Source: Clostridium sp. CAG:632
Lineage (GTDB): Bacteria > Bacillota > Clostridia > Lachnospirales > Lachnospiraceae
Assembly (NCBI GenBank): GCA_000431515.1
Contig: HF991345.1
Location: forward strand, 4,200 to 68,199
DNA length: 64,000 bases
Direction: 5' to 3'
In this document: one piece after another, positions 2,701 to 43,700 of the stretch
Numbering within the stretch: position 1 is the stretch's first letter
How the letters are laid out: each line of letters starts with the position of its first letter
Program-made: the position numbers and the translations under genes
Notes under the pieces: generated by a model
The model's database searches: none
Told to the model about the DNA's origin: nothing
What the model saw: the letters and a program-made list of their open reading frames with translations, nothing else

Positions 2701-3135
2701 GTGATGACAGTGTATGAGCATGAGGCACAATATTATGAGACGGATCAGATGGGAATCATCCATCATTCCAACTATCTTCGATGGTTTGAGTCCGCAAGGA
2801 TCCAGTTCCTGAAAGAGATCGGGATCGACTATCGGAAATGTGAGGAGATGGGGATCATCAGTCCGGTCATGGAAGTAACCTGTACATATAAGTCTATGGT
2901 GCGCTTTGAAGACGTAGTAGAAGTGTATACCAGATTTGAAGGGTATACCGGTGTGAAGTTCTATGTAACATATGAGGTAAGAGATAAGGCGACCGGTGAG
3001 CTCCGGACGACCGGAAGAAGTAAGCACTGCTTCACGGATAAGGAAGGACGACCAATTTCACTGAAACGGGTAAATCCGGAATTGCATGAGCGATTGCTCG
3101 CAGCGATGGAAGAACAGGACGTGCGTAATAGCTAA
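2701..3135 (+). CDS. Acyl-CoA thioesterase, hotdog fold (YbgC/4HBT family)
   Basis: N-terminal YETDQMGIIHHSNYLRWFE signature of 4HBT thioesterases. Length 144 aa. Confidence 0.7.
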   Translation: MMTVYEHEAQYYETDQMGIIHHSNYLRWFESARIQFLKEIGIDYRKCEEMGIISPVMEVTCTYKSMVRFEDVVEVYTRFEGYTGVKFYVTYEVRDKATGELRTTGRSKHCFTDKEGRPISLKRVNPELHERLLAAMEEQDVRNS

Positions 3136-3159
3136 AAACTATTACGCACGATTTTTTTT
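3121..3159 (+). terminator. Rho-independent terminator overlapping the thioesterase stop codon
   Basis: Perfect 11-bp stem gtgcgtaatag/ctattacgcac with a 7-nt loop, followed by an 8-T run. Confidence 0.7.
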
Positions 3160-3170
3160 ATGTATTACCG

Positions 3171-3195
3171 TTGAAACGGCAACCGGTGTTATACT
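3171..3195 (+). promoter_or_regulatory. Candidate extended -10 promoter for the LanC-like gene
   Basis: TTGAAA at 3171-3176, then TGtTATACT at 3187-3195. Spacing to the -35 is short (13 nt), so this relies on the extended -10. Confidence 0.35.
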
Positions 3196-3265
3196 GCAAG
3201 ACAAGTCATAAGAACAGAATATGAAATGTCAAACGGCAAATGATAATGAGAGGAGCAGGTAGCAC

Positions 3266-4675
3266 ATGGAACGAAAAACATACACAGAGCATTTATTCAG
3301 AATCGGGAAAAAGTATATGCGGGTGACACCGGAGGGACCGGAAGAGTACCGCCGGGTGGCAGAGAAGGTCTATAACAGCCTGAAGAATATAGAGTTCGAG
3401 CTGGAGGACGGTCTTTATTTCGATGCGAGCATCGGGGATCAGTATTTAAGAAATGTACGACCGCAGCTGGCGAAGTATGAGCCGGGAAAGCGGCCGGCAG
3501 AGCTACTGGATCTGAGCCTGTACGGCGGGAATGCCGGTATCGTATATTATCTCCTGAACTTATATCAGTTGACGGAAGATAAAGAAGTGCTGAAGACAGC
3601 CAAGGAGGCACTGGCACTGATCTGTAGAGATTTTCGGTCGATTTTTACCTACCAGCATATCAGTGTGCCGGATGCAAAGAACGGATTCTATTTCGGGATC
3701 GGTGGTGTGGGTTCAGTGATCATGATCGCAGATGATGTGATCGGGGATCCGTTGTATCGTAAGACGATTGAAGAGATTGTGGAGTATCTGGATCAGACGA
3801 AGGTTGAGACAGAGCAGGGAATCTACTGGGGACATCAGACCGGCCTGATCGGCGATCCGGGCGTGATCCTGTTCCTGCTGGAGGCGGCAGAGAAATATCA
3901 GCTTAAGAAGGCAAAGGAGCTGGCACTCCGTGGCGGTGATTATATTGAGACCTACCGGGAGGAGACTCCATATGGTATCAAATGTGATACGAAGCCTTTG
4001 TACGGCAGTGATTGCCCGAACTATGTCTATGGCCCGTCCGGAACCGGGTTTGTACTGACCAGACTGTATGAGGTCAGCGGAGAAGAGAAGTATCTGGCTC
4101 TGGCGAAAGAACTGGCAGAATATCTGATGAATCTTGCGGTTCAGACCGGAGACGGAAAGCTGATTCCGTATATTCTCGGTGAAGAGGAGACTATCTTCTA
4201 TGTAAATGCCTGCCACGGACCGGCAGGCACCGGACGGTTCTTCTATACACTCTACCGGGCAACCGGCGAGGCCGTATACCATGACTTTTCAATCGAGCTT
4301 TGCAAGGGCGTACTTGCGACCGGAGCTCCGACAGTACAGGGTAAGACACTGTGGAATAATGTAACCTACTGCTGCGGTGCTGCGGGATTGCTACACTATT
4401 TTATCTCATTATATATAACAGAGCAGGATGCGCAGTATCTGGAACTCGCTAAGACCTGTGGTGAAATCATTCTCGGCGAGAAGGAAGAGGATGAGCAGGA
4501 AGTGTTTTGGCCGACAGCATTCGCACGGATCGATCCGCAGACCGTAGATGTGAAATACAGCTTTTACGATGGCAGTACGGGAATCGCAACCAGCCTGATA
4601 GAGCTTTACCTTCTGCTGACCGGGCATTATCGGATTCACAGACTGGCAGATGATCCGTTCCCGGAAAGCCGATAG
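3266..4675 (+). CDS. LanC-like (lanthionine synthetase C family) protein, standalone
   Basis: SLYGGNAGIVYYLL, the NACHGPAGTG CHG motif and TYCCGAAGLL are characteristic LanC alpha/alpha-barrel and Zn-ligand motifs. RBS GAGGAG lies upstream. Confidence 0.7.
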   Translation: MERKTYTEHLFRIGKKYMRVTPEGPEEYRRVAEKVYNSLKNIEFELEDGLYFDASIGDQYLRNVRPQLAKYEPGKRPAELLDLSLYGGNAGIVYYLLNLYQLTEDKEVLKTAKEALALICRDFRSIFTYQHISVPDAKNGFYFGIGGVGSVIMIADDVIGDPLYRKTIEEIVEYLDQTKVETEQGIYWGHQTGLIGDPGVILFLLEAAEKYQLKKAKELALRGGDYIETYREETPYGIKCDTKPLYGSDCPNYVYGPSGTGFVLTRLYEVSGEEKYLALAKELAEYLMNLAVQTGDGKLIPYILGEEETIFYVNACHGPAGTGRFFYTLYRATGEAVYHDFSIELCKGVLATGAPTVQGKTLWNNVTYCCGAAGLLHYFISLYITEQDAQYLELAKTCGEIILGEKEEDEQEVFWPTAFARIDPQTVDVKYSFYDGSTGIATSLIELYLLLTGHYRIHRLADDPFPESR

Positions 4676-4740
4676 TTCTTCCGGGGAGAAGACAGTGTTT
4701 CCGGGGAGAAGGTAGTGTTTCCGGGGAGCCGGGAGGAATT
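4657..4740 (+). repeat. Three to four tandem about 20-bp direct repeats (TTCCGGGGAGAAGrYAGTGT) starting at the LanC-like stop codon
   Basis: Copies at 4679-4698 and 4699-4718. A partial copy at 4719-4738. A degenerate copy at 4657-4675. Confidence 0.6.
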
Positions 4741-4811
4741 GAAAATCGGAATGAGATTGGCTATAGCCGGGGCCTATACCCGGCAACACTTAAAACGTAT
4801 AGCCTATGGAA

Positions 4812-4840
4812 TTGACAAAATGGGTAAGTTGGATTATGAT
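4812..4840 (+). promoter_or_regulatory. Sigma-A-type promoter for the dehydrogenase/aminotransferase/ABC operon
   Basis: TTGACA at 4812-4817, a 17-nt spacer, then TATGAT at 4835-4840. Confidence 0.5.
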
Positions 4841-4993
4841 ACTGCACATAAAACATACAATTCCTATTAAAATAATATGAATAATATGAAACGACACAAA
4901 CGGCAAATAACATACTGCCGGATAGTGACAGGAAAGAACAGAAAGAAAACATATACGAAAGAGTACAGGATCAGAGGAAGGGTGGAATACAGA

Positions 4994-6079
4994 ATGGTTT
5001 CAATCAATACACCGGAAATATATATCAACGAACCGGGAGCGATTCATAAGGTGGCAGATTATACAGAACTGGCAATTGGCGAAGGAAGAAAGAAAGCCTA
5101 CATCATCTGGTCAAAGACACCGAGGTCTCTTGTAAAGGAAGCTCTGGATGAAGACTTTGGACAGAAGGGAATTGCTTATGAGGAACAGCTTTTTGAAGGA
5201 TTCCCAACGGACGCAAAGGCACGCAGCTACGCGGAAGAGGCGAAGGCAGCCGATGCCGAAGTGATCCTGGGTGTCGGCGGCGGCCGAGTGATGGATGTGA
5301 CAAAGGCAGCCGGTACCTATTCCGGACTTCCGGTGATCACAGTGCCGACGATCGCAGCCACCTGTGCTGCATGGGCAGCCGTATCCATCATTTATACCGA
5401 TCAGGGTGATTTTGATAAGTTCCTGTTTAATCCGAAGTCAGCGAAATACATTGTAGCTGATACCGACATCATCGCAAAGGCTCCGGTCCGGTACTTAAAA
5501 GCCGGTATCGTAGATACATTTGCAAAATGGTATGAGCCGGTTTACAGAGAGACACCATCCTTTACCATGCAGATATCGACCCATACTGCAAAGCTTGCCT
5601 TTGACTTTCTCAGGACAAAAGGCCCACAGGTAGTAGAGCAGGCAGAAGCCGGTATCGTAAACGATGACACGATCGCAGCGGTGGATGCCATCATCTACCT
5701 GGCAGGAAATATCGGAAGCTTTGTCGGAAAGGAAGCATTCTCCGGACTGGCACATCCGTTTTATCATTCTTCCCGGAGATACCATTCCACCTATATCCGG
5801 CTGCATGGAGAAATCGTAGCGTTTGCACTGGTGGTACAGGGAATTTACGAGGAACGCTCAAGGGAAGAAATCGCAGAGCGGATCCGGATCCTCCGGAAAT
5901 TCGATAATACCTATACACTCGAAGAGCTGGGACTTTCGGAAGAGGAACAGCTGATTACGATCGCAGAGCGAATGCAGTCCGAGTTTGAAGGGAAACAGGT
6001 AACAGACGAAGAGACTGCAAAGCTGGTCGCAGCCATGGAGGAGACCGATCGGCGGATAAAGGAGATGCGTGAGGCATGA
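4994..6079 (+). CDS. Iron-containing alcohol dehydrogenase family, glycerol dehydrogenase (GldA)-like
   Basis: LGVGGGRVMDVTKAAG (GGGK-type NAD loop), TVPTIAATCAAWAAVSIIYTDQGDFD and the HP...H metal ligands match GldA-type enzymes. I prefer a start at 4994 with RBS AGGAAGGGTGG. The listed ORF start at 4877 would add a basic extension with no RBS. Confidence 0.7.
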   Translation: MVSINTPEIYINEPGAIHKVADYTELAIGEGRKKAYIIWSKTPRSLVKEALDEDFGQKGIAYEEQLFEGFPTDAKARSYAEEAKAADAEVILGVGGGRVMDVTKAAGTYSGLPVITVPTIAATCAAWAAVSIIYTDQGDFDKFLFNPKSAKYIVADTDIIAKAPVRYLKAGIVDTFAKWYEPVYRETPSFTMQISTHTAKLAFDFLRTKGPQVVEQAEAGIVNDDTIAAVDAIIYLAGNIGSFVGKEAFSGLAHPFYHSSRRYHSTYIRLHGEIVAFALVVQGIYEERSREEIAERIRILRKFDNTYTLEELGLSEEEQLITIAERMQSEFEGKQVTDEETAKLVAAMEETDRRIKEMREA

Positions 6080-7185
6080 GTGTTAAAGAAAAAGAAGCAT
6101 TAAAGGAAATTACATTATATAAAGCAGCGGCAACGATTGAATCGGTAGTGAAGCAGTACGGATATTCACCGGAAGAAATCATTAAGCTGGAAGGAAATGA
6201 GAACCGGATGGGCTGTTCCCCGAAGGTGGCAGAAGCGGTTGCAAAGGAAGCACAGAGCTTCTCGTTCTATCCGGATCTGAATGTGACGCAGCTGAGAAAG
6301 AAGCTGGCAGACCGGCTGAAGATCGCAGGGGACAACCTGATCTTTGGAAACGGATCCTTTGAACTGTTGTCGATCATCGGCGACAGTTATATCGAGGAAG
6401 GCGAGGAGGCGATCATTCCGGTTCCGTCCTTTAACTGGTACACCAATGTAACACTGATCAATGGCGGAAAGCCAGTATATGTCAATGTGGAAGAGGATTT
6501 TACAATCCATCCGGATAAGATTCTGAATGCGATTACGGAACGGACCAAGGTGATCTTCCTCTGTAATCCGAACAATCCAACCGGACTACTGATGAAGAAG
6601 GAGCATCTGGAACGGCTGATCCAGGAAATTCCGGAGCGGATCTTATTTGTCATAGATGAAGCATATCTGGACTTCGCAGAAGGGGATTATCCGGATACGG
6701 CAGCACTTGCAACGCAGAAGGAGAACCTGATTTTACTACGGACCTTTTCGAAGAGCTATGGACTGGCAGGCTTACGAATCGGATACGGAATCGCAACTCC
6801 GGCAGTGATAGATACCCTGTCTAAGGTCAGGATTCCATTAAATGTCAGCTCTGTCGCACAGGCGGCTGCCGTTGCGGCAGTAGAGGATGATACGTACTTA
6901 AATCAGGTACTGGAGAACAACCGCCGGAGTATGGAGCTATATTATGAGGCATTCCGGGAGCTGGGATTTGATTATCTGGAAAGCAGTACGAATTTCGTAT
7001 TCGTGCATACCGGGATAGATGCCGCATGGCTGCAGCAGGAGTTCCTGAAGCATGCGATTATGATCCGGAGCGGTCTGGACTATGGATATCGGGAGTGGAT
7101 CCGGATTTCCATGGGAACCTACGAGGAGAATCAGAAGGTCGTTCAGGTCTTGAAAGAAATCGTGAAGAAGGCAAAGGAGAAGTAG
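6076..7185 (+). CDS. Class I/II PLP aminotransferase, histidinol-phosphate aminotransferase (HisC) family
   Basis: LLRTFSKSYGLAGLRIGYGIA carries the Schiff-base lysine motif of the HisC/CobD family. ATGA start/stop overlap with the upstream dehydrogenase indicates translational coupling. Confidence 0.7.
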   Translation: MSVKEKEALKEITLYKAAATIESVVKQYGYSPEEIIKLEGNENRMGCSPKVAEAVAKEAQSFSFYPDLNVTQLRKKLADRLKIAGDNLIFGNGSFELLSIIGDSYIEEGEEAIIPVPSFNWYTNVTLINGGKPVYVNVEEDFTIHPDKILNAITERTKVIFLCNPNNPTGLLMKKEHLERLIQEIPERILFVIDEAYLDFAEGDYPDTAALATQKENLILLRTFSKSYGLAGLRIGYGIATPAVIDTLSKVRIPLNVSSVAQAAAVAAVEDDTYLNQVLENNRRSMELYYEAFRELGFDYLESSTNFVFVHTGIDAAWLQQEFLKHAIMIRSGLDYGYREWIRISMGTYEENQKVVQVLKEIVKKAKEK

Positions 7186-7186
7186 G

Positions 7187-7960
7187 ATGGCAGAAGAAAA
7201 GATATGTATGTTAAAGGCAGAAGATATTAAGAAGTCCTTTGGCAGCAACCATATTCTAAAGGGCGTGAATCTGGAGGTTGACAAGGGCGACGTCGTCGTG
7301 ATCCTGGGACCGAGCGGAGCAGGTAAAACGACCTTCCTGCGATGTTTGAACTTTCTGGAAAAACCTAATTCCGGCAAGATCACGATAGATGACCTGACCG
7401 TGGATGCACATAACGTAAACAAGAAGGACATCGTAAAGCTTCGCAGAAAAACAGCGATGGTATTTCAGCAATATAACCTGTTTAAGAACAAGACGGCACT
7501 GCAGAATGTGACGGAGGGTCTGATTCAGGTACAGAAGAAACCGAAGGCTGAGGCAGAGAAGATCGCAAAAGAATATCTGGACCGGGTAGGTCTATCAAAG
7601 AAATGTGATGCATATCCGGCGAATCTTTCCGGCGGACAGCAGCAGAGAGTCGGAATTGCCAGGGCACTGGCATTACGACCGGACGTAATCTTATTTGATG
7701 AGCCGACATCCGCACTGGACCCGGAGCTGGTAGGAGAAGTCCTTTCGGTTATGCGAGCAATCGCCAAAGAAGGAATCACTATGGTGGTCGTTACACATGA
7801 AATACAGTTCGCAATGGATATCGCAACGAAGGTAGTTGTCATGGATGAAGGAAAAGTCATAGAGCAGGGCAGTGCAAAGGATATCTTCCGGAATGCAAAG
7901 GAAGATCGGACACGTCAGTTTTTACAAAAGATAATTCCTGAATATTCATATATTATTTGA
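7187..7960 (+). CDS. Polar amino-acid ABC transporter ATP-binding protein (GlnQ/HisP-like)
   Basis: Walker A GPSGAGKTT, signature LSGGQQQRV and Walker B ILFDEPTSALD. Confidence 0.85.
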   Translation: MAEEKICMLKAEDIKKSFGSNHILKGVNLEVDKGDVVVILGPSGAGKTTFLRCLNFLEKPNSGKITIDDLTVDAHNVNKKDIVKLRRKTAMVFQQYNLFKNKTALQNVTEGLIQVQKKPKAEAEKIAKEYLDRVGLSKKCDAYPANLSGGQQQRVGIARALALRPDVILFDEPTSALDPELVGEVLSVMRAIAKEGITMVVVTHEIQFAMDIATKVVVMDEGKVIEQGSAKDIFRNAKEDRTRQFLQKIIPEYSYII

Positions 7961-7991
7961 ATTTTTTAATTGAGAAAAGGAGAAAAGAAAC

Positions 7992-8879
7992 ATGAGAAGA
8001 GAAGCAGGTAAATTTATTAAGAGATTAGGAGCAATATCATTAGCAGGTATTTTAGGAGTATCTGTTCTGGCCGGCTGCGGTGCAAAAGCAGATACAAATG
8101 GCGGTTCAGATAGTGCAAATGGAGTAAAGAAGGTGGTAGTCGGTACTACAGGATTATATGCACTGCAGTCCTTCATTAATGATGACGGTGAGCTGGACGG
8201 CGCTGAGATCGCAGTCTGCAAGGCAATCGATGAGAAGCTGCCGCAGTATGAGTTTGAATACAGCACGATGGAATTCGCAGCGATCCTGCCGGCCGTAGAT
8301 GCGGGCAAGGTGCAGATTGCATGCTCTAACTTAAGAAGAACCGAAGACAGAGAGGCTAATTACATTCATTCCAAGGAAGCATATATCACATCACCATATT
8401 ATATTATCGTGTTAGACGGTAACTCAGATATTAACGGAATTGACGACCTGAATGGTAAGAAGCTGGGTATTAACGAAGGCTCTACACAGGCAGGTATTTT
8501 AGAGCAGTATATTGAGAAGTCAGGAGCAGACATTGAGCTGGTTTACTCCTCTGACCCGGTACCGGATCTGGTAGCAGGCAGAATTGATGCGATCGTTGAC
8601 CCGCAGAGATATGTGCTGAGTCTGAATTCCAGCTACGAGGATGCACAGTTTAAGACGGTCGGTGAGCCGATCGATAACCTGGCAGAGGAAGGCAGTGTAG
8701 TCGCAGATTACAATGCATATCTGTGGTTCTCATCGGAAGACACCGAGCTGCGTGATGCTGTAGATACCGCACTGGCTGAGCTGTATGCAGACGGTACATT
8801 AGGAGAGATCTCTAAGGAATACTATGGTGAAGATTATGCCAAAGATATCAACAGAGATTACGTAGAGAGCTTTAAATAA
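7992..8879 (+). CDS. Amino-acid ABC transporter substrate-binding lipoprotein
   Basis: Signal peptide with lipobox LAGCGA. Type-3 periplasmic binding-protein fold features. Confidence 0.7.
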   Translation: MRREAGKFIKRLGAISLAGILGVSVLAGCGAKADTNGGSDSANGVKKVVVGTTGLYALQSFINDDGELDGAEIAVCKAIDEKLPQYEFEYSTMEFAAILPAVDAGKVQIACSNLRRTEDREANYIHSKEAYITSPYYIIVLDGNSDINGIDDLNGKKLGINEGSTQAGILEQYIEKSGADIELVYSSDPVPDLVAGRIDAIVDPQRYVLSLNSSYEDAQFKTVGEPIDNLAEEGSVVADYNAYLWFSSEDTELRDAVDTALAELYADGTLGEISKEYYGEDYAKDINRDYVESFK

Positions 8880-8910
8880 AAGATAAAAGAGACACTTAGA
8901 AGGACACGTT

Positions 8911-9594
8911 ATGAAGATTTTTGAATGGAAGTACATCTTTATATTTCTGCCGAAGCTGTTACCAATGCTTCCAATCACACTGTTGATATGGATTCTGTCA
9001 GTCGTGGGAGCATTGATATTGGGAGCAGGGTTTATGGTTATCCGGGAGAAGAAGATCCCGGTCCTGTCCCAGCTGGTGCGGGTGATCATGTCGATCATCC
9101 GTGGATTCCCACCGCTGACACAGCTGTTTGTATTCTATTACGGACTGCCGAAGCTCCTGTCATTGGTCGGAATCGATGTCAACGACTGGGCACCGCTGGT
9201 GTTCGTTGTGCTGGCATACGCATTGGGACAGAGTGCAACGGTGATGGAGACGTTCCGGTCTGCATTCGCCAGTGTCGGCAAGGGACAGACGGAAGCGGCT
9301 TATTCGATCGGTATGATGAACCGGATGGCATTTTTCCGGGTAACTCTGCCGCAGGCGATGGTGGTGGCACTTCCGAATTTTTCCAATCTGTGCATTTCAA
9401 CATTGAAGAATACGTCCATTGCATTCTCGGTCGGCGTGGTTGAAATCGTGGCAAGAGCCAATCAGCTCTCCGGAGCCATGCAGCATAAGATGGAAAGCTA
9501 TATTGCGCTGGCAATCATATATTATGTAATCTATCTGTTCCTGAAAAAGGGATTTAATGTATTAGAGAAGAAGTTCTCATTCGAGAAATACTAG
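8911..9594 (+). CDS. Amino-acid ABC transporter permease (HisM/GlnP family)
   Basis: Multi-TM protein with an EAA-like loop (EAAYSIGMMNRMAFFRVTLPQA). Confidence 0.8.
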   Translation: MKIFEWKYIFIFLPKLLPMLPITLLIWILSVVGALILGAGFMVIREKKIPVLSQLVRVIMSIIRGFPPLTQLFVFYYGLPKLLSLVGIDVNDWAPLVFVVLAYALGQSATVMETFRSAFASVGKGQTEAAYSIGMMNRMAFFRVTLPQAMVVALPNFSNLCISTLKNTSIAFSVGVVEIVARANQLSGAMQHKMESYIALAIIYYVIYLFLKKGFNVLEKKFSFEKY

Positions 9595-9607
9595 AGGAGG
9601 AACGCAA

Positions 9608-10321
9608 ATGGTATTCAATTTTGAATTTTGTCTTGAAGTCCTGAAAAAATGTGTACAGGCGATTCCTCTGACCTTGTATCTGACGCTCTGGGCGTTCCTG
9701 ATCGGAATGGTGATCGCAATCGTGATCGCGCTGATCCGTTATAAGGAAGTCCCGGTATTAAATAAGATATTTCAGTTCTATGTATCGTTCATCCGGGGAA
9801 CTCCGGTTATGCTGCAGCTGTACATTGTATACTATATGATCCCGATGGCGCTGGATGCGATTCTGGAGAAGACGGATATTGCATTCCGGACCAATCAGAT
9901 TGAGATTAAGGTACTCGTATTGATCGCACTGGCATTAAACGTATCGGCATATCTGTCTGAGATTATCCGTGGTGGTCTGATCTCGCTCGGAAAGGGAGAA
10001 ATCGAGGCGGCGTATTCCATTGGTATGACACCGGCGATGGTGGTACGCAGAATCATTATTCCGCAGGTGTTTGTACAGTGTATTCCGAACTTCTCGGCGA
10101 ACCTGATCAGTGTCCTGCAGGCATCCTCTCTGGCATACTTCGTATCCCTTCAGGAGGTAACCGGAACGGCTAAGGTCATGGCAAGCAGCAACTGGAAATA
10201 CTTTGAAGCATTCGTTGCAACCGGTATCATCTACTGGCTGCTGACGGTAATTATCGAGTTAGTCACTTACGGACTGGAACGTGCGGCAGAAAGGAATGGA
10301 TATCAGTTGAAGAAGCAGTAA
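9608..10321 (+). CDS. Amino-acid ABC transporter permease (second subunit)
   Basis: Paralogous to the preceding permease (EAAYSIGMTPAMVVRRIIIPQ). Confidence 0.8.
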   Translation: MVFNFEFCLEVLKKCVQAIPLTLYLTLWAFLIGMVIAIVIALIRYKEVPVLNKIFQFYVSFIRGTPVMLQLYIVYYMIPMALDAILEKTDIAFRTNQIEIKVLVLIALALNVSAYLSEIIRGGLISLGKGEIEAAYSIGMTPAMVVRRIIIPQVFVQCIPNFSANLISVLQASSLAYFVSLQEVTGTAKVMASSNWKYFEAFVATGIIYWLLTVIIELVTYGLERAAERNGYQLKKQ

Positions 10322-10494: not shown

Positions 10495-10785
10495 CTGGCT
10501 AGTGTTCAAAGGAATATAGACCATGAAAGGCATAGATGGAGACAGTAGCACTCTCAGAACACGATAGAGAGCCGGGGATGGTGGAAGCCCGGTGTCAGTA
10601 TGGAGATTGTGAAGATCACTCCGGAGCTGCAGACCGAATCAGACAAGTAGGCTCTGACGTGATTCCTGCGTTAACGGGAAGATGGGTGAATGCGCGAGCA
10701 GAGATAGGAGCAGAGCCCGGAAGAAATTAGGTGGTATAGCGAATAATGGAACCTTCGTCCTAATGGATGATGGTTCCTTTTTTAG
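10495..10785 (+). promoter_or_regulatory. T-box leader (tRNA-Ile-responsive) upstream of ileS, with a terminator hairpin
   Basis: T-box-like AAATTAGGTGGTA at about 10724-10737. Terminator ggaacc...ggttcc plus TTTTTT at 10748-10784. AGAGA and GA motifs and ATC-containing loops upstream. A possible -35 TTGACA sits at 10462. Confidence 0.55.
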
Positions 10786-10872: not shown

Positions 10873-13800
10873 ATGTACGAAAAGGTATCAACGAACTTAA
10901 ACTTCGTAGAACGGGAAGCGAAAGTGGAACAGTTCTGGAAGGACAACAAGATTTTTGAAAAAAGTGTAGAAGAGAAAGAAGGATGTCCGGTCTATACATT
11001 TTATGACGGACCTCCGACAGCCAATGGTAAACCACACATCGGTCACGTGTTGACGCGTGTTATTAAGGATATGATCCCGAGATATCAGACTATGAAGGGA
11101 CATAAGATTATTCGTAAGGCCGGCTGGGATACCCATGGTCTTCCGGTAGAGCTGGAGGTTGAGAAACAGCTTGGACTGGATGGCAAGGAGCAGATCGAGG
11201 AATACGGTCTGGAGCCATTTATTGAGAAGTGTAAGGAAAGTGTCTGGAAATACAAGGGTATGTGGGAGGAATTCTCCGGCAAGGTTGGTTTCTGGGCAGA
11301 TATGGATGATCCATATGTAACCTATCATAATGATTTCATTGAGTCCGAATGGTGGGCATTGAAGAAGATCTGGGAAAAGGGATTGCTGTATAAGGGCTTT
11401 AAGATTGTACCTTACTGCCCACGTTGCGGTACTCCGTTGTCTTCTCATGAGGTAGCACAGGGCTACAAGGCAGTGAAGGAGCGGTCCGCAGTTGTCCGGT
11501 TCAAGGTGGTTGGTGAGGATGCTTATTTCCTGGCATGGACCACAACACCATGGACCCTGCCAAGTAATGTGGCACTTTGTGTAAACCCGGATGAGAATTA
11601 CTGTAAGGTAAAGGCTGCAGATGGTTATACTTATTATATGGCAGAGGCACTGCTGGATACCGTGCTTGGTAAGCTGGCAACCGAGGAAGCACCTGCCTAT
11701 GAGGTGCTGGATACCTTCAAGGGTACTGCTCTGGAATATAAAGAATATGAGCCATTGTTCCGTGTAGCAGCAGACCTGGCTGCAAAGCAGGGAAAGAAAG
11801 GTCATTATGTGACCTGCGATACCTATGTAACGATGAGTGATGGTACCGGTATCGTTCATATTGCGCCTGCATTTGGTGAAGACGATGCCAAGGTAGGACG
11901 GAAATATGACCTTCCATTTGTACAGCTGGTAGACGGAAAAGGTGATATGACAGATAATACACCATATGGTGGTATCTTTGTTAAGAAAGCAGATCCGTTG
12001 GTATTGGAGGATCTGGATAAGCAGGGACTGCTGTTTGATGCACCGAAGTTCGAGCATGATTATCCGTTCTGCTGGAGATGTGATACTCCATTGATCTATT
12101 ATGCGAGAGAGTCCTGGTTCATTAAGATGACAGAAGTTCGTGAGGATCTGATTAAGAACAATAATACCGTAAACTGGATTCCGGAGAGTATTGGTAAAGG
12201 CCGTTTCGGTGACTGGCTTGCCAATGTACAGGACTGGGGCGTTAGCCGTAACCGTTACTGGGGTACTCCGTTAAATATCTGGGAGTGTGAATGCGGTCAC
12301 CGTCATGCGATCGGTTCTATTGAGGAGCTAAAGCAGCTGTCCGACAATTGTCCGGATGATATTGAACTGCACCGTCCATTTATTGATGAGGTAACCTTCA
12401 AGTGTGAGAAATGTGGCGGCGAGATGCATCGTGTACCGGAGGTAATCGACTGCTGGTTCGATTCCGGATCCATGCCGTTTGCACAGTGGCATTATCCATT
12501 TGAGAATGAGGATATCTTTAAGGAGAATTTCCCGGCTGACTTTATCAGTGAGGCCGTTGACCAGACCCGTGGATGGTTCTATTCTCTGATGGCGATTTCA
12601 ACGCTGCTGTTTAATCAGGCACCGTATAAGAATGTTATCGTGCTTGGACACGTACAGGATAAAGACGGACAGAAGATGAGTAAGTCTAAGGGAAATGCAG
12701 TTGATCCGATGGAAGCACTGAACAAATACGGTGCAGATGCGATCCGCTGGTATTTCTACAGTAATTCCGCTCCTTGGCTGCCGAACCGGTTCCATGAGGA
12801 TGCGGTTGTGGAAGGTCAGAGAAAGTTCATGGGTACTCTGTGGAATACCTATGCATTCTATGTATTGTATGCAGAGATCGATCAGTTTGATCCGACCAAA
12901 TACAGTCTGGAATATGATAAGCTGGCCGTTATGGATAAATGGCTGCTGTCTAAGTTAAATACAGTCATTAAGGAAGTAGATGAAGCACTTGGCGCATATA
13001 AGATTCCGGAAACGACCCGTGCACTGGCAGAGTTTGTGGATGATATGAGTAACTGGTATGTAAGACGCTGCCGTGACCGTTTCTGGGCAAAGGGAATGGA
13101 GCAGGATAAGATCAATGCGTATATGACACTTTATACCGCGCTGGTAACGATCTGTAAGCTGTCTGCACCGATGATTCCGTTTATGACAGAGGATATTTAT
13201 CAGAATCTGGTTCGCGGTCTGGATAAGACGGCACCGGAGAGTATTCATCTGTGTGACTTCCCGGCAGCGGATGAGGCATATATTGATACAGAGCTGGAAG
13301 CAGATATGGATGAGGTCCTTCATGTTGTAGTCCTGGGCCGTGCGGCAAGAAACCTTGCAAACATCAAGAACCGTCAGCCGATCGGTACCATGTATATCAA
13401 GGCTGCAAAGGAATTATCTGAGTTTTATGCAGAGATCATCGAGGATGAGCTGAATGTAAAGAAGGCAGAATTCAGAGAGGATGTATCAGAGTTTACATCT
13501 TATAGCTTCAAGCCACAGCTCCGTACTGTTGGACCGAAGTATGGTAAGCAGCTCGGTGGCATTAAGCAGTATCTGTCACAGGTAGATGGCAATGCTGCCA
13601 TGGCTGAGCTGAAGGAAAAGGGAAGTATTACATTTGACGTTGCAGGAGTTACCGTGTCCTTGACAGAAGAAGATCTGCTGATCGATATGGCACAGACAGA
13701 AGGCTTTGTAAGCCAGCAGGATAATTATGTAACGGTTGTTCTGGATACGAAGCTGACTCCGGAACTGATCGAGGAAGGCTTTGTCCGTGAAATCGTATCA

Positions 13801-14031
13801 AAGGTACAGACCATGCGTAAGGAAGCAGACTTCCGGGTAACCGACCAGATTGTAATATATGTAGATAATAATGAAAAGATTGCGAATATTATTATTCGGA
13901 ATGCAGATACCATCAAGCATGACACCCTGGCGCAGATTATTGAGATTGGCAAGATGGCAGGTTTCACAAAGGAATGGAACATCAATGGCGAAAAGGTTAC
14001 CTTTGGTGTGACACAGAAGAATCTGGATTAG
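10873..14031 (+). CDS. ileS: Isoleucine--tRNA ligase (type 2, long form)
   Basis: Class-I motifs PHIGH and KMSKS. CP1 editing-domain signatures. 1052 aa. Confidence 0.95.
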   Translation: MYEKVSTNLNFVEREAKVEQFWKDNKIFEKSVEEKEGCPVYTFYDGPPTANGKPHIGHVLTRVIKDMIPRYQTMKGHKIIRKAGWDTHGLPVELEVEKQLGLDGKEQIEEYGLEPFIEKCKESVWKYKGMWEEFSGKVGFWADMDDPYVTYHNDFIESEWWALKKIWEKGLLYKGFKIVPYCPRCGTPLSSHEVAQGYKAVKERSAVVRFKVVGEDAYFLAWTTTPWTLPSNVALCVNPDENYCKVKAADGYTYYMAEALLDTVLGKLATEEAPAYEVLDTFKGTALEYKEYEPLFRVAADLAAKQGKKGHYVTCDTYVTMSDGTGIVHIAPAFGEDDAKVGRKYDLPFVQLVDGKGDMTDNTPYGGIFVKKADPLVLEDLDKQGLLFDAPKFEHDYPFCWRCDTPLIYYARESWFIKMTEVREDLIKNNNTVNWIPESIGKGRFGDWLANVQDWGVSRNRYWGTPLNIWECECGHRHAIGSIEELKQLSDNCPDDIELHRPFIDEVTFKCEKCGGEMHRVPEVIDCWFDSGSMPFAQWHYPFENEDIFKENFPADFISEAVDQTRGWFYSLMAISTLLFNQAPYKNVIVLGHVQDKDGQKMSKSKGNAVDPMEALNKYGADAIRWYFYSNSAPWLPNRFHEDAVVEGQRKFMGTLWNTYAFYVLYAEIDQFDPTKYSLEYDKLAVMDKWLLSKLNTVIKEVDEALGAYKIPETTRALAEFVDDMSNWYVRRCRDRFWAKGMEQDKINAYMTLYTALVTICKLSAPMIPFMTEDIYQNLVRGLDKTAPESIHLCDFPAADEAYIDTELEADMDEVLHVVVLGRAARNLANIKNRQPIGTMYIKAAKELSEFYAEIIEDELNVKKAEFREDVSEFTSYSFKPQLRTVGPKYGKQLGGIKQYLSQVDGNAAMAELKEKGSITFDVAGVTVSLTEEDLLIDMAQTEGFVSQQDNYVTVVLDTKLTPELIEEGFVREIVSKVQTMRKEADFRVTDQIVIYVDNNEKIANIIIRNADTIKHDTLAQIIEIGKMAGFTKEWNINGEKVTFGVTQKNLD

Positions 14032-21136: not shown

Positions 21137-22060
21137 ATGTGGATTTTATATGCATTCGGTTCTGCACTCTTTGCCGGGATCACGTCCATACTGGCGAAGT
21201 GCGGAATGAAGGACGTAGATTCTAATGTAGCAACCGCATTGCGAACAATCGTTGTACTGATATTTTCGTGGATCCTGGTTTTTGTAAAGGGAGTTCCGGT
21301 CACATGGAGTACCATAGATGGGAAGACGTTGCTGTTTCTGATTCTGTCCGGACTGGCGACCGGGGCATCCTGGCTGTGCTATTTCCATGCATTGCAGATT
21401 GGGGATGTCAATAAGATCACACCGATCGATAAATCGAGTACGGTGCTTACCATGCTGCTGGCAATGATATTTCTGCAGGAATCGGTGACTGTATTGAAGG
21501 TGGTATGTATGATTCTGATCGGAGTCGGAACTTATCTGATGATTCAGAAGAAGGAGGCACCAAAGGGGGAAGAAGTATCAGAGAGAAATGAGAATCCTCA
21601 AAAGACAGAGCTATTGTCCGACAGCCGGAAACCGTTTGCCGGCAGTTGGTTATTCTTTGCCTGCGGTTCGGCTGTGTTTGCCAGTCTGACCTCCATTCTC
21701 GGCAAGGTAGGTATTCAGAATATTGACTCCACACTGGGAACCGCGATTCGTACGATCGTTGTACTGATCATGGCATGGATTGTGGTATTTGTAACGAAGA
21801 CACAGGGAACAATCAGTACGTTAAATCGTTCCAATTGGTTATTCTTAGGGTTGTCCGGACTGGCGACCGGCGGTTCCTGGCTGTGCTATTATCGGGCATT
21901 GCAGACAGGACCTGCCAGTGTAGTCGTACCGATTGATAAACTGAGTATATTGATTACAATTGCATTCTCATATCTTGTATTCCGCGAAAAGCTGAATCTG
22001 AAATCAGGCATTGGACTGGGGGCTATCGTAGCCGGAACCCTGTTGCTTCTGCTGGCCTGA
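21137..22060 (+). CDS. EamA/DMT-family transporter (two tandem EamA repeats)
   Basis: Two homologous 5-TM halves (ILAKCGMKDVDSNVATALRTIVVLIFSWILVFV and ILGKVGIQNIDSTLGTAIRTIVVLIMAWIVVFV). Confidence 0.75.
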   Translation: MWILYAFGSALFAGITSILAKCGMKDVDSNVATALRTIVVLIFSWILVFVKGVPVTWSTIDGKTLLFLILSGLATGASWLCYFHALQIGDVNKITPIDKSSTVLTMLLAMIFLQESVTVLKVVCMILIGVGTYLMIQKKEAPKGEEVSERNENPQKTELLSDSRKPFAGSWLFFACGSAVFASLTSILGKVGIQNIDSTLGTAIRTIVVLIMAWIVVFVTKTQGTISTLNRSNWLFLGLSGLATGGSWLCYYRALQTGPASVVVPIDKLSILITIAFSYLVFREKLNLKSGIGLGAIVAGTLLLLLA

Positions 22061-41461: not shown

Positions 41462-41700
41462 TTGAAAATGTCATAGTTCTGTAAACCTTGTGGTCGGAGG
41501 CGGGAGCCTTCGTTTAAAGGAACCGGGTGAGAAGCCGGACTGTTAATCCCAGCCGTAATGGGGACGAGGAAGCCATGGATGCCACTGGAGCAATAGCTCC
41601 GGGAAGGCGGCTTCAGTAGGAAGAACCAGAGTCGGAACACAATACATGAGGGAGGAATCGGGAGAATATCTTTAGGCAAGAAGATGTTTATTTTTGTTGT
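41462..41700 (+). ncRNA. Cobalamin (B12) riboswitch
   Basis: CCGGGTGAGAAGCCGGACTG...AATCCCAGCC core. B12 box GCCACTGG...GGGAAGGC at 41581-41610. Confidence 0.7.
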
Positions 41701-41774: not shown

Positions 41775-43700
41775 ATGGCAAACAAGATGAAAAAGCTGGC
41801 AGCAATGCTTGTAGCGGTTGCAATGGTGCTTACATTGTTCCCGTCAAGTGTATTTGCCGCAGATGAGCATGCAGATGAAGTGCATGTAATTGTTGAAAAC
41901 ACGACCTATGCAAAGACAGCAGGTGCCCCATGGGAAGGCAGAGCTGTAGATACCTGGGTAAAGATCAATGCAGACAGTACAGGAATCTCTGTATTAAAGG
42001 AAGCCGTCGGAGAGGCTAATGTAACGGTAACATCGAGTTCGTATGGAAGTTTTATTTCAGCCATTAAAGGAATTACCAGTGGAGATGGCGGAGATACTTC
42101 TATCGGTTATAATCCGGCAGGCTGGTTGTATCTTCTTAATGATACAATGGCAAACTTTGGTATTGACGGATGTACGGTAGCAGCCGGGACCTTAAGTGCC
42201 GGAGATGAGCTGTCATTCGAGTACTCACTGACCGGCGGTTCCGATATCGGATATGACTGGCAGGATACAGAGAAAAAGGCGTTAAAGGATCTGACAGTCA
42301 GTGATGGTATTTTATCTCCTGCATTCAGTTCCTCCGTTACCTCTTATACGCTGACGGTTCCGGCAGGTGTAAGCAGTGTAGTACTTTCACCGGAAGCAGA
42401 GAATAAGACAGAGACCGTGACTATTACCGCAGGTGGAACTACTTATAAGAGAGCCATGAGTATTCCGGTAGTCAATGGTACGAAGATCACGATCACCAGC
42501 AGCAACGGTACCGATCAGACAGTATACAATGTCTATATGAAGCAGGATCAGGGATATACTGCAGACACAATGCGCAAAGGAGTTCTTTCCGTTCTGGATC
42601 AGAGCCTGAATGATACGACCTGCGCATATGGCAATGAGTGGGCAGTACTTGCACTGGCAAGGGATGGTGCATTAAGCAGGGAAAAGGCAGCAGCCTATTA
42701 TGCCAGCGTAGAAGCAACTGTAAAAGAACTAAAGAGTGATAAATTAGATTCCACCTATGCAACCACAAATGCAAGAGTTGCACTGGCGATCAGTGCGATC
42801 GGCGAGGATCCACAGAAGGTAGCCGGTTATAACCTGTTGCAGCCGCTTGCCAATATGGATTATATTAACGGACAGGGCGTGAATGCTGCCGCATATGCAT
42901 TGCTGGCATTTGATGCAAAGCAGTATGAGATTCCGACCGCAAAGGCAGGAGAAACTCAGACAACCAGAGAAGGACTGATCCGGAAGATTTTGGATGCACA
43001 GTTATCGGATGGCGGCTGGGATTATTCCGAAGTCGGTGCAGATCCGGATATGACAGCTATGGTTCTGCAGGCACTGGCTCCGTATTGCAGCTCTGATACA
43101 GCGGTCCGGACGGCAGTGGATAAAGGACTTTCCGCACTTTCTGCAATTCAAAATCCGGATGGCACTTATTCCAGCTGGGGATATGTTTCCTCTTACAGTC
43201 TGGCACAGGTGCTGACAGCATTATCGATCTTAAAGGTAGACCCGCTGACCGATAGCCGGTTTATTAAGAATGGACGGACTGTGATCGACGCATTGGGAGA
43301 CTTCTATGTGCCGGGTGCAGGCTTTAAGGGTAATATCGATGATACAGCAGTAGCCGCAGGTGCAAATGTACAGGCTGCTTATGCATTAGTTGCATATCAT
43401 CGCTATGTAGAAGGCAAGAATTCATTATATGATATGCGTGATGCGAAGAAAGAGGAAGCTCCGACAACAACGGAGACAACGACCGAAGCTACAACGGAAG
43501 CCACCACAGCAGCCACGACAGCGTCAGCTACAACTGCTGTAGCCACTACAGCAGCCACTGAGGCAACGACTGCTTCCGGAGCAAAGGATGTGAAGACACC
43601 GACAACCGGAGATGCTGCACCGGTAGCTGTTATCGTACTTCTGATGGCAGCTTCTATGGCAGGTGTCGTAATTATAGGTAAGAAAAAAGCACAGAGATAA
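41775..43700 (+). CDS. Cell-surface cobalamin-binding-like protein: DUF4430 (transcobalamin beta-domain-like), a cadherin-like beta-sandwich and an alpha/alpha-barrel (prenyltransferase/terpene-cyclase-like) domain; Thr-rich stalk and C-terminal TPTTG-TM-KKK anchor
   Basis: Signal peptide. The N-terminal 150 aa resemble the following DUF4430 ORF. Repeats of the form DGGWDY / GNEWAVLALA. C-terminus KTPTTGDAAPVAVIVLLMAASMAGVVIIGKKKAQR. Confidence 0.5.
   Translation: MANKMKKLAAMLVAVAMVLTLFPSSVFAADEHADEVHVIVENTTYAKTAGAPWEGRAVDTWVKINADSTGISVLKEAVGEANVTVTSSSYGSFISAIKGITSGDGGDTSIGYNPAGWLYLLNDTMANFGIDGCTVAAGTLSAGDELSFEYSLTGGSDIGYDWQDTEKKALKDLTVSDGILSPAFSSSVTSYTLTVPAGVSSVVLSPEAENKTETVTITAGGTTYKRAMSIPVVNGTKITITSSNGTDQTVYNVYMKQDQGYTADTMRKGVLSVLDQSLNDTTCAYGNEWAVLALARDGALSREKAAAYYASVEATVKELKSDKLDSTYATTNARVALAISAIGEDPQKVAGYNLLQPLANMDYINGQGVNAAAYALLAFDAKQYEIPTAKAGETQTTREGLIRKILDAQLSDGGWDYSEVGADPDMTAMVLQALAPYCSSDTAVRTAVDKGLSALSAIQNPDGTYSSWGYVSSYSLAQVLTALSILKVDPLTDSRFIKNGRTVIDALGDFYVPGAGFKGNIDDTAVAAGANVQAAYALVAYHRYVEGKNSLYDMRDAKKEEAPTTTETTTEATTEATTAATTASATTAVATTAATEATTASGAKDVKTPTTGDAAPVAVIVLLMAASMAGVVIIGKKKAQR

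What the first reader, a model, noticed from the sequence alone, without database searches (positions are those of the whole stretch)
3216..4908. Shared 25-nt leader motif links the standalone LanC-like gene to the downstream dehydrogenase-aminotransferase-ABC operon
AATATGAAAtgtCAAACGGCAAAT sits at 3217-3241 in the 5' leader of the LanC-like gene. AATATGAAAcgacaCAAACGGCAAAT sits at 4885-4908 in the leader of the GldA-like/HisC-like/ABC operon. The two share an identical 12-mer, CAAACGGCAAAT, and an identical 9-mer, AATATGAAA. A third partial copy, GAAACGGCAA, lies at 3174-3183. Such conservation in two non-coding leaders 1.7 kb apart implies one regulator or RNA element controlling both units. 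That functionally couples a LanC-like cyclase/thiol-transferase to amino-acid uptake and amino-alcohol metabolism.
Basis: seen in the sequence. Interest (0 to 1): 0.6.

Follow-up and report, generated by a model that had tools for sequence, protein, structure and literature searches.

The report
Species-specific repeat shared by two leaders
The two promoter-leader regions really do share a short bipartite sequence, but it looks like a recent, species-specific patchwork of copied DNA and not a conserved regulatory signal; the link between the LanC-like gene and the downstream operon is shown better by conserved gene order.

Summary
AATATGAAA-N3-CAAACGGCAAAT lies at 3218-3241 and AATATGAAA-N5-CAAACGGCAAAT at 4883-4908. 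Each is about 17-40 nt downstream of a predicted promoter, for the LanC-like gene and the Fe-ADH/HisC/ABC operon. The pairing is beyond chance.

It is not an isolated motif. The two leaders share short blocks in two different registers, a mosaic typical of DNA copied between them.

The similarity is confined to one species (GTDB representative MGYG-HGUT-00627). The sister lineage (85-87% identical proteins) keeps both promoters but has no 12-mer in the Fe-ADH leader, only CAATCGTGAAA (8 of 11 aligned bases) in the LanC leader, and no leader-to-leader similarity. No other genome among 185,579 species shows the bipartite pattern in a comparable context. The species' own representative has only these two sites.

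Rfam finds nothing, no RNA fold is shared, there is no dyad symmetry, the spacer varies in length and sequence, and the 12-mer copies are polymorphic between strains.

Best reading (about 0.5): recent sequence exchange between neighbouring leaders, with no demonstrated function. A lineage-specific operator remains possible (about 0.35).

In a 66% orthologue the LanC-like and Fe-ADH genes abut within a single gene run that looks like one operon. Interest is low.

The parts
3120..3150 (+). Intrinsic terminator hairpin that insulates the LanC-like unit from the upstream thioesterase gene
   Evidence: 12-bp stem followed by a T-run. It is conserved, with compensatory stem changes, in the sister lineage L007/L008.
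3173..3182 (+). Partial copy M3 (GAAACGGCAA), lying in the spacer of the LanC-like promoter just upstream of the -10
   Evidence: 9-mer AAACGGCAA shared with 3231 and 4898. It is polymorphic within the species (C3180T in L199/L208).
3187..3195 (+). Extended -10 promoter element TGT-TATACT of the LanC-like gene; the predicted transcription start is near 3201-3203
   Evidence: Read from the sequence. TGTTATACTGCAAG is conserved in L007/L008, and TATACT is conserved in L004.
3210..3219 (+). Block X (AAGAACAGAA), identical to 4934-4943
   Evidence: 10-mer on diagonal 1724, collinear with M3 and ATACTGC.
3218..3241 (+). Bipartite repeat, copy 1: Y (AATATGAAA, 3218-3226), spacer TGT (3227-3229), M1 (CAAACGGCAAAT, 3230-3241)
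   Evidence: The spacer is polymorphic, TGT or TGA. Y plus spacer is an 11-nt insertion relative to the sister lineage, which has CAATCGTGAAA in place of M1.
3266..4675 (+). LanC-like gene (469 aa)
   Evidence: Pfam LANC_like, 97.6 bits. Close homologues are rare and come from Lachnospiraceae.
4812..4840 (+). Sigma-70 type promoter TTGACA-17-TATGAT of the Fe-ADH/HisC/ABC operon; the predicted transcription start is near 4846-4848
   Evidence: 11 of 12 matches. It is conserved in L007/L008/L210.
4874..4881 (+). Extra upstream Y copy (AATATGAA), part of the tandem AATAATATGAA x2 at 4871-4891
   Evidence: self-match 4871/4880, 11 nt. This Y region is ancestral in the Fe-ADH leader: L007 has AATAATATGGAAAGTATGAA.
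4883..4908 (+). Bipartite repeat, copy 2: Y (4883-4891), spacer CGACA (4892-4896), M2 (CAAACGGCAAAT, 4897-4908)
   Evidence: Spacer alleles in other strains are CAACA, AGACA and AGGCA, and one strain has M2 = CAAACGGAAAAT. Spacer plus M2 plus AACATACTGCC is a 28-nt insertion relative to the sister lineage.
4901..4920 (+). Hairpin CGGCA-N10-TGCCG that includes part of M2; it has no counterpart in the LanC-like leader
   Evidence: -6.8 kcal/mol, z = -3.25. It was also picked up on the minus strand. It is broken by the C4904A variant in L206.
4912..4918 (+). Block P' (ATACTGC), a copy of the -10/discriminator sequence of the LanC-like promoter (3191-3197); it also matches 4839-4845
4934..4943 (+). 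Block X' (AAGAACAGAA), identical to 3210-3219; it lies inside an 18-nt insertion relative to the sister lineage
4994..10321 (+). Operon of Fe-ADH (4994-6079), HisC-like aminotransferase (6076-7185), ABC ATPase (7187-7960), substrate-binding protein (7992-8879) and two permeases (8911-9594, 9608-10321)
   Evidence: The same gene order is seen in L001-L003 and L210.

Best explanation
The shared sequence is a lineage-specific product of DNA copying between two neighbouring promoter-leader regions. The likely route is non-allelic gene conversion or templated patch duplication. It is not a conserved regulatory signal.

The two leaders share five short blocks: M (CAAACGGCAA), P (ATACTGC), X (AAGAACAGAA), Y (AATATGAAA) and the 12-mer form of M. 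The blocks align in two different registers, as cyclic permutations: M-P-X-Y-M in the LanC leader and P...Y-Y-M-P-X in the Fe-ADH leader.

Relative to the sister lineage, the LanC leader gained Y, which is ancestral in the Fe-ADH leader. The Fe-ADH leader gained M, P and X, which are LanC-leader sequences.

Shown: the blocks, their registers, their restriction to one species, their absence from the sister lineage, and their polymorphism. Inferred: the copying mechanism, and the lack of a dedicated function.

The two transcription units are coupled anyway, because they descend from one operon. No terminator is detected between them, so read-through from the LanC promoter is likely.
For: 1. Similarity extends beyond the motif. 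The best local alignment of the two leaders runs from the -10 region through the motif to the sequence upstream of the ribosome-binding site. It scores 45 against 28.2 +/- 4.9 for shuffles (1 of 500 reach it).
2. A second, offset register is also present: AAACGGCAA 3174/4898, ATACTGC 3191/4912 and AAGAACAGAA 3210/4934.
3. The similarity is derived. The sister lineage L007 shows no leader-to-leader similarity (31 against 32.6), although both promoters are conserved.
4. The window-specific insertions coincide with the shared blocks. In the LanC leader the insertion is the 11-nt ATATGAAATGT. In the Fe-ADH leader they are a 28-nt spacer+M+P' segment and an 18-nt X' segment.
5. The same intergenic region is prone to duplication. 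It holds a 20-nt tandem repeat x3 at 4677-4728 that is absent from the sister lineage, the tandem AATAATATGAA x2, and a 9-nt duplication that is polymorphic between strains.
6. There is no sign of a regulon or of selection on the motif. The species' representative genome has only these two sites. The 64 other hits are chance matches in unrelated taxa, mostly inside long ORFs. M2 and M3 each carry a strain variant. Diversity in the leaders is no lower than in the flanking coding sequence.
7. No dyad symmetry, a spacer of 3 versus 5 nt, no Rfam hit and no shared fold.
Against: Each leader acquired the element that was ancestral in the other, so both now carry the same Y-spacer-M composite. Under neutrality this needs at least two copying events in opposite directions, both fixed in the species. 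Selection for a common site would explain that more economically.

Three M copies arose or were homogenised in one lineage. No substitution was seen in the 9-mer halves, and only one in the two full 12-mers, across 5-6 haplotypes. The sample is too small for that to be significant.

Shared motifs in the leaders of adjacent, functionally linked units are often genuine operators. The genome-wide scan required exact matches to both halves, so diverged sites would have been missed. The species' representative is an incomplete MAG.
Confidence: 0.5

Rival explanations
1. The repeat is a lineage-specific cis-regulatory site. An unidentified trans-acting factor recognises Y-N3-5-M. This could be a DNA-binding repressor acting as a roadblock at about +17..+40 and +37..+62, with M3 as an auxiliary site in the LanC core promoter. 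It could instead be a protein or sRNA binding the single-stranded 5' UTR. Either way, two promoters that split an ancestral operon would be co-ordinated.
For: Both copies lie on the sense strand downstream of predicted promoters of functionally linked units. The pairing is far beyond chance. Each leader gained the other's block, giving the same composite in both. Differences between the two copies and between strains concentrate in the spacer: 4 of the 5 polymorphic sites in the two copies fall in the 8 spacer positions. A third M-like copy overlaps the LanC promoter. Orthologous or homologous loci elsewhere are under dedicated regulators, namely LysR in L001 and L213 and TetR in L211, so this locus is expected to be regulated.
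Against: The sister lineage has no 12-mer in the Fe-ADH leader and only a diverged remnant in the LanC leader, although both promoters are conserved. It has no alternative shared motif either. No regulator gene lies next to the locus, and the window has no homologue of the L001 LysR. The species' representative genome has no third site. There is no dyad or direct-repeat architecture. A 2-bp difference in spacer length is awkward for a dimeric DNA-binding protein. The distance from the transcription start differs (about 17 versus 37 nt). M2 and M3 carry strain variants at the same C. The extra shared blocks P and X have no role in this model.
Confidence: 0.35
2. The repeat is a structured cis-acting RNA, such as a small riboswitch or leader element, present in both 5' UTRs.
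For: Both copies are transcribed in the sense orientation. The Fe-ADH leader folds better than shuffles (z = -3.56 for 4846-4935), with M2 partly inside a hairpin. RNA elements tolerate a variable spacer.
Against: There is no Rfam match at gathering score, and none in the leaders even at E <= 10. The LanC leader is only about 65 nt long and folds no better than shuffles (z = -0.95 and +0.33), with M1 unpaired. The CGGCA/TGCCG hairpin exists only in the Fe-ADH leader and is broken in strain L206. Neither leader has a terminator or a pairing that would sequester the ribosome-binding site. The element is not conserved outside the species.
Confidence: 0.04
3. The ATG inside Y starts a short leader peptide, an upstream ORF whose translation controls the downstream genes.
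For: Both copies begin with ATG AAA. In the LanC leader a 13-codon ORF (3221-3262) ends 3 nt before the LanC start. In the Fe-ADH leader the ATG is in frame with Fe-ADH (ORF 4877-6079).
Against: The 12-mer is read in different frames in the two copies, because the spacers are 3 and 5 nt long. The TGT>TGA strain variant turns the third codon of the LanC-leader ORF into a stop. No Shine-Dalgarno sequence precedes either ATG. In the sister lineage the Fe-ADH-leader ORF stops after 11 codons, and gene callers start Fe-ADH at the downstream ATG.
Confidence: 0.03
4. The match is a chance similarity of two A-rich leaders.
For: Repeated 12-mers are common in the window (365). The leaders are A-rich.
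Against: The bipartite pair is expected 0.07 times per window. The exact pattern was found in 0 of 100 shuffles. Collinear blocks exist in a second register. The local alignment exceeds 499 of 500 shuffles.
Confidence: 0.03

Closest known systems
Operators of a local transcription factor shared by adjacent operons, for example roadblock sites of CcpA, CodY or PurR-type repressors downstream of the transcription start (comparison from general knowledge)
   Same: The same sequence lies in sense orientation downstream of the promoters of two neighbouring, functionally linked units. A weaker extra copy sits in one core promoter.
   Different: There is no dyad or regular direct-repeat architecture, and the half-site spacing varies. 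The site is not conserved in a sister lineage whose promoters are conserved. No cognate regulator gene is nearby, and the genome has no further sites. By eye I found no match to the cre, CodY, ARG-box, TnrA or PurBox consensus as I recall them. That is a lead, not a test.
Concerted evolution or gene conversion between short paralogous intergenic segments, i.e. duplicated promoter modules
   Same: The leaders share a mosaic of exact blocks with small indels, in two registers. The mosaic is restricted to one lineage, and the region carries other tandem duplications.
   Different: The tracts are very short (7-12 nt exact blocks within about 50-70 nt) and the two sites are 1.67 kb apart. The exchange appears to have gone in both directions, which is unusual for a purely neutral process.
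Small cis-regulatory leader RNAs, such as the T-box or short riboswitches
   Same: The location, in the 5' UTRs of amino-acid-related genes. The same window holds a genuine T-box (10524-10765) and a cobalamin riboswitch (41473-41663).
   Different: There is no covariance-model match, no common secondary structure, no expression platform and no conservation beyond the species.

Membership tests
Rfam cis-regulatory RNA families (riboswitches, T-box and other leaders) | A match to a curated covariance model at or near its gathering score | tested here: not met
   (gathering threshold, whole window) found only the T-box at 10524, a tRNA and a cobalamin riboswitch. One search (E <= 10, 3100-5050) found only a spurious mir-24 hit inside the LanC coding sequence.
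Structured leader RNA (generic) | A secondary structure common to the copies and more stable than shuffled sequence | tested here: not met
   The LanC leader gives z = -0.95 and +0.33 with M1 unpaired. The Fe-ADH leader has a hairpin through M2 that the LanC leader lacks.
Transcription-factor operator / regulon motif | Conservation upstream of orthologous genes in related genomes | tested here: not met
   The 85-87% lineage (L007, L008, L210) keeps both promoters. It lacks M in the Fe-ADH leader and Y in the LanC leader. L001 has no such intergenic regions and no motif.
Transcription-factor operator / regulon motif | Internal symmetry (palindrome or phased direct repeats) with fixed half-site spacing | tested here: not met
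   One search found no inverted repeats of 8 nt or more in either leader. The spacer is 3 nt in one copy and 5 nt in the other.
Transcription-factor operator / regulon motif | Further sites elsewhere in the genome and/or a cognate regulator encoded nearby | tested here: inconclusive
   The strict pattern is found only twice in the species' representative genome, and near-matches are not enriched in the window. However, the scan required exact halves and the representative is a MAG. No regulator lies within about 7 kb.
Leader-peptide attenuator / upstream ORF | An ORF conserved in frame, with a ribosome-binding site | tested here: not met
   The frames differ between the two copies. The TGT>TGA variant creates a stop codon. 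No Shine-Dalgarno sequence is present.
Dispersed short repeats (REP/MITE-like) | Many copies per genome, usually with terminal inverted repeats | tested here: not met
   There are two copies in 64 kb and two in the representative genome. No inverted repeats were found.
Segmental copying between paralogous intergenic regions | Similarity that extends beyond a single motif, is collinear, is lineage-restricted and coincides with indels relative to an outgroup | tested here: met
   The mechanism itself (conversion versus template switching) cannot be tested with these tools.

The most novel reading that the evidence does not exclude
A newly evolved bipartite element, Y-N3-5-M, was installed in both leaders by reciprocal sequence exchange. 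It is recognised by an unidentified, lineage-specific DNA- or RNA-binding factor. This would re-create coordinated control after an ancestral LanC-like / dehydrogenase / aminotransferase / ABC operon was split into two promoters. It would be an example of operator birth caught within a single gut Lachnospiraceae species.
Probability: 0.3. Interest if true: 0.4.

Novelty: already known. Interest (0 to 1): 0.2.

Why it matters
If the repeat is only a copying relic, it serves as a caution. A striking shared motif between two adjacent leaders need not mark a regulon, and comparison with a sister lineage settles the point quickly.

If it does work as an operator, it would be a small, species-level case of regulatory rewiring, of interest mainly to people who study the turnover of binding sites.

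The more useful by-product is the conserved gene neighbourhood. A rare stand-alone LanC-like protein sits with a GldA-like dehydrogenase, a HisC-like aminotransferase and an amino-acid ABC transporter. In one lineage a Cys/Met-family PLP enzyme and a LysR regulator are also present. This points to an uncharacterised pathway, possibly for a sulfur-containing amino acid, in gut Lachnospiraceae.

Tried and rejected
1. Rfam at the gathering threshold and at E <= 10 found nothing in the leaders.
2. RNA folding of both leaders showed no common structure.
3. The upstream-ORF idea was rejected on frame differences and a stop-creating variant.
A 12-mer-only regulon scan across public collections is therefore not feasible with these tools.
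5. The strict bipartite scan of genome contigs returned 66 hits. Only the two from this species lie in a leader context.
6. The metagenome scan with the Fe-ADH protein returned just five loci. Four are the same species and one is the sister lineage.
7. tblastn of the L001 LysR against the window found no homologue. The Pfam survey of small ORFs in the window found only distant ArsR, PadR and XRE-cupin regulators, more than 47 kb away.
8. I looked for purifying selection in strain polymorphism. Diversity in the leaders (1-3 sites per 100 nt) is no lower than in adjacent coding sequence, so the test is uninformative.
9. By eye I compared the motif with the cre, CodY, ARG-box, TnrA, Spo0A, PurBox and LexA consensus sequences from memory. 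None fitted convincingly. This is not a formal test.
10. A literature search on bacterial stand-alone LanC-like proteins and lanthionine catabolism found nothing on this gene cluster.
Full report
**Observation.**
The region was read directly. Copy 1 is AATATGAAA-TGT-CAAACGGCAAAT at 3218-3241. Copy 2 is AATATGAAA-CGACA-CAAACGGCAAAT at 4883-4908. The partial copy GAAACGGCAA is at 3173-3182.

The bipartite pattern occurs exactly twice in the window and never in 100 shuffles. The 12-mer with up to 1 mismatch occurs only at these two places. With up to 2 mismatches it is not enriched, 8 found against 5.4 expected.

A window-wide control shows that a repeated 12-mer by itself is ordinary. There are 365 such pairs, against 147 in Markov simulations. 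A 9-mer plus 12-mer pair with a shifted gap is rare: 3 in the real window against 0.07 simulated. The other two are a tandem repeat and an internal gene repeat.

**Setting.**
Pfam and NCBIfam confirm the gene calls:
- a LANC_like protein at 3266-4675;
- a GldA-like Fe-ADH at 4994-6079 (the ORF is open from 4877, but the start at 4994 has a Shine-Dalgarno sequence and matches the orthologues);
- a HisC-like aminotransferase at 6076-7185;
- an amino-acid ABC transporter at 7187-10321.

A terminator at 3120-3150 precedes the LanC unit. A near-consensus promoter, TTGACA-17-TATGAT, lies at 4812-4840. By eye, the LanC unit has an extended -10, TGT-TATACT, at 3187-3195. Both promoters are conserved in related lineages. 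The motif copies therefore sit at roughly +17..+40 and +37..+62 of two 5' leaders. No plus-strand terminator was found between the LanC stop and the second promoter, so read-through is likely.

**The motif is part of a larger mosaic.**
The best local alignment of the two leaders runs from the -10 region (ATACTGCA) through Y and M to GATAaTGAgAGGA. It scores 45, against 28.2 +/- 4.9 for shuffles (1 of 500 reach it).

A second register is also present: AAACGGCAA 3174/4898, ATACTGC 3191/4912 and AAGAACAGAA 3210/4934. In block terms the LanC leader reads M-P-X-Y-M and the Fe-ADH leader reads P...Y-Y-M-P-X. These are cyclic permutations of one unit, with small indels between the blocks.

The same intergenic region carries other duplications:
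- a 20-nt tandem repeat x3 at 4677-4728;
- the tandem AATAATATGAA x2;
- a 9-nt duplication that is polymorphic between strains.

**Comparative evidence.**
Close homologues of the LanC-like protein are few: 98%, 87%, 80%, 76% and 66% identity, then 38% or less.

Contigs encoding the identical protein, or a 97-99% identical one, carry both copies. They belong to one species, whose GTDB representative is 'uncultured Clostridium sp. MGYG-HGUT-00627'.

The sister lineage (L007, L008, L210; 85-87% identical proteins) has the same gene order and both promoters. Its LanC leader has CAATCGTGAAA where the window has CAAACGGCAAA, and it lacks the 11-nt Y+spacer. Its Fe-ADH leader has Y-like AGTATGAA but lacks a 28-nt segment (spacer, M2 and AACATACTGCC) and an 18-nt segment containing AAGAACAGAA. 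The sister's two leaders show no similarity to each other (31 against 32.6 for shuffles).

The 76% lineage (L004) has CAAACGTGATAAG before its ribosome-binding site and no Y. So M is roughly ancestral to the LanC leader and Y to the Fe-ADH leader. In the window's species each leader acquired the other's block.

**Regulon test.**
I scanned one genome from each of 185,579 species for TATGAAA-N2-6-CAAACGGCAAAT and got 66 hits. Two are this locus in the species' representative. The other 64 are spread over unrelated phyla, nearly all inside long ORFs. Neither that genome nor any relative shows a third site.

No regulator gene lies beside the locus. A LytTR two-component pair sits about 7 kb upstream, and ArsR, PadR and XRE-type genes lie more than 47 kb away. 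The LysR gene that heads the cluster in L001 has no homologue in the window.

**RNA and peptide readings.**
Rfam finds nothing in the leaders, even at E <= 10.

The LanC leader folds no better than shuffles, and M1 is unpaired. The Fe-ADH leader has a hairpin, CGGCA-N10-TGCCG, through M2 that has no counterpart in the other copy. One strain breaks that hairpin.

An upstream ORF starting at the ATG in Y is excluded. The 12-mer is in different frames in the two copies, and the TGT>TGA variant creates a stop codon. There is no dyad symmetry.

**Variation within the species.**
Five to six haplotypes give these spacer alleles: CGACA, CAACA, AGACA and AGGCA in the Fe-ADH leader, and TGT or TGA in the LanC leader. 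There is one variant inside M2 (CAAACGGAAAAT) and one inside M3 (GAAACGGTAA).

Leader diversity is 2 sites in 130 nt and 7 sites in 203 nt. This is no lower than in the neighbouring coding sequence (1-5 sites per 100 nt). There is therefore no evidence of special constraint on the motif.

The only oddity is that 3 of the 7 polymorphic sites in the Fe-ADH promoter-leader are the adjacent positions 4892-4894 in the spacer. I cannot explain this.

**Interpretation.**
The most economical account (about 0.5) is recent sequence exchange between the two neighbouring leaders in a duplication-prone region, with no demonstrated function.

The main rival (about 0.35) is that the composite Y-spacer-M is a lineage-specific binding site for an unknown factor. 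The reciprocal acquisition of blocks is the best argument for it. Against it are the lack of conservation, of symmetry, of a cognate regulator and of further sites, together with the strain variants.

A structured RNA, a leader peptide and chance similarity are each unlikely (0.04 or less each).

Coupling of the LanC-like gene to the downstream genes stands on independent grounds. In the 66% orthologue (L001-L003) the LanC-like stop overlaps the Fe-ADH start. Both sit within one same-strand gene run behind a LysR gene: Cys/Met-PLP enzyme, aminotransferase, LanC-like, Fe-ADH, aminotransferase, four ABC genes and a PP-loop protein.

More distant homologues (34-38%) sit beside a PALP enzyme, an amino-acid ABC transporter or a LysR/SDR pair. 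In the window's species the ancestral operon has apparently been split by a 320-nt spacer that carries its own promoter.

**Verdict.**
The repeat is real and the leaders are correctly identified. The phenomenon is ordinary, and interest is about 0.2.

Noticed in passing
window 4677-4728: An imperfect 20-nt tandem repeat (TTCCGGGGAGAAGnnAGTG, about 3 copies) follows the LanC-like stop codon directly. It is absent from the sister lineage (a 77-nt gap there). It is also the most polymorphic stretch of the locus, with 19 segregating sites in 115 nt.
   Followed up: partly
window 4892-4894 (and 3229): The spacer between the two motif halves is a polymorphism hot spot. Three adjacent segregating sites give four alleles (CGACA, CAACA, AGACA, AGGCA) among five haplotypes, while the rest of the 203-nt promoter-leader has only four variable sites. 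The single-copy variants in M2 and M3 both hit the same C of GGCAA. I have no explanation.
   Followed up: partly
L001 6562-17732 (Lachnospiraceae MAG GCA_017460845): In a 66% orthologue the LanC-like gene lies inside one long same-strand run behind a LysR gene: cystathionine-lyase-family PLP enzyme, aminotransferase, LanC-like, Fe-ADH, HisC-like aminotransferase, four ABC genes and a PP-loop ATPase. This suggests an uncharacterised pathway for a sulfur amino acid. More distant LanC-like homologues sit next to a PALP enzyme, an amino-acid ABC transporter or a LysR/SDR pair (L211-L213).
   Followed up: partly
window 10524-10765: A T-box leader (93.1 bits, just at the gathering score) lies upstream of the 1052-aa class I tRNA synthetase gene at 10873-14031. 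Gene callers place a 64-aa ORF over it.
   Followed up: no
window 41473-41663: A cobalamin riboswitch (53.2 bits) lies upstream of the 641-aa ORF at 41775-43700, which is followed by a DUF4430 protein.
   Followed up: no
window 4854-4888 and L007 about 1711-1750: The first 45 nt or so of the Fe-ADH leader are more conserved between the two lineages than the coding sequence is. They are predicted to form a 5'-proximal hairpin whose 3' arm is the Y block (CAUA...UAUG). The LanC leader of the window can form an analogous UCAUA/UAUGA hairpin, using sequence that is specific to this species. These could be mRNA-stabilising 5' stem-loops.
   Followed up: partly
window 2701-3055 versus L199/L208: There is a recombination-like breakpoint. 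The species' representative is only 87-88% identical to the window upstream of about 3055 (thioesterase gene and beyond), but about 97% identical downstream.
   Followed up: no
window 21368 and 21875: An internal bipartite repeat lies inside the EamA-family transporter gene (21137-22060). It probably reflects that gene's two homologous EamA domains.
   Followed up: no
L004 2260-3108: In the 76% lineage the LanC-like gene is not followed by the Fe-ADH operon. It is transcribed divergently from a GlpP-like (G3P_antiterm) gene, and an aspartate aminotransferase gene lies just beyond that.
   Followed up: no
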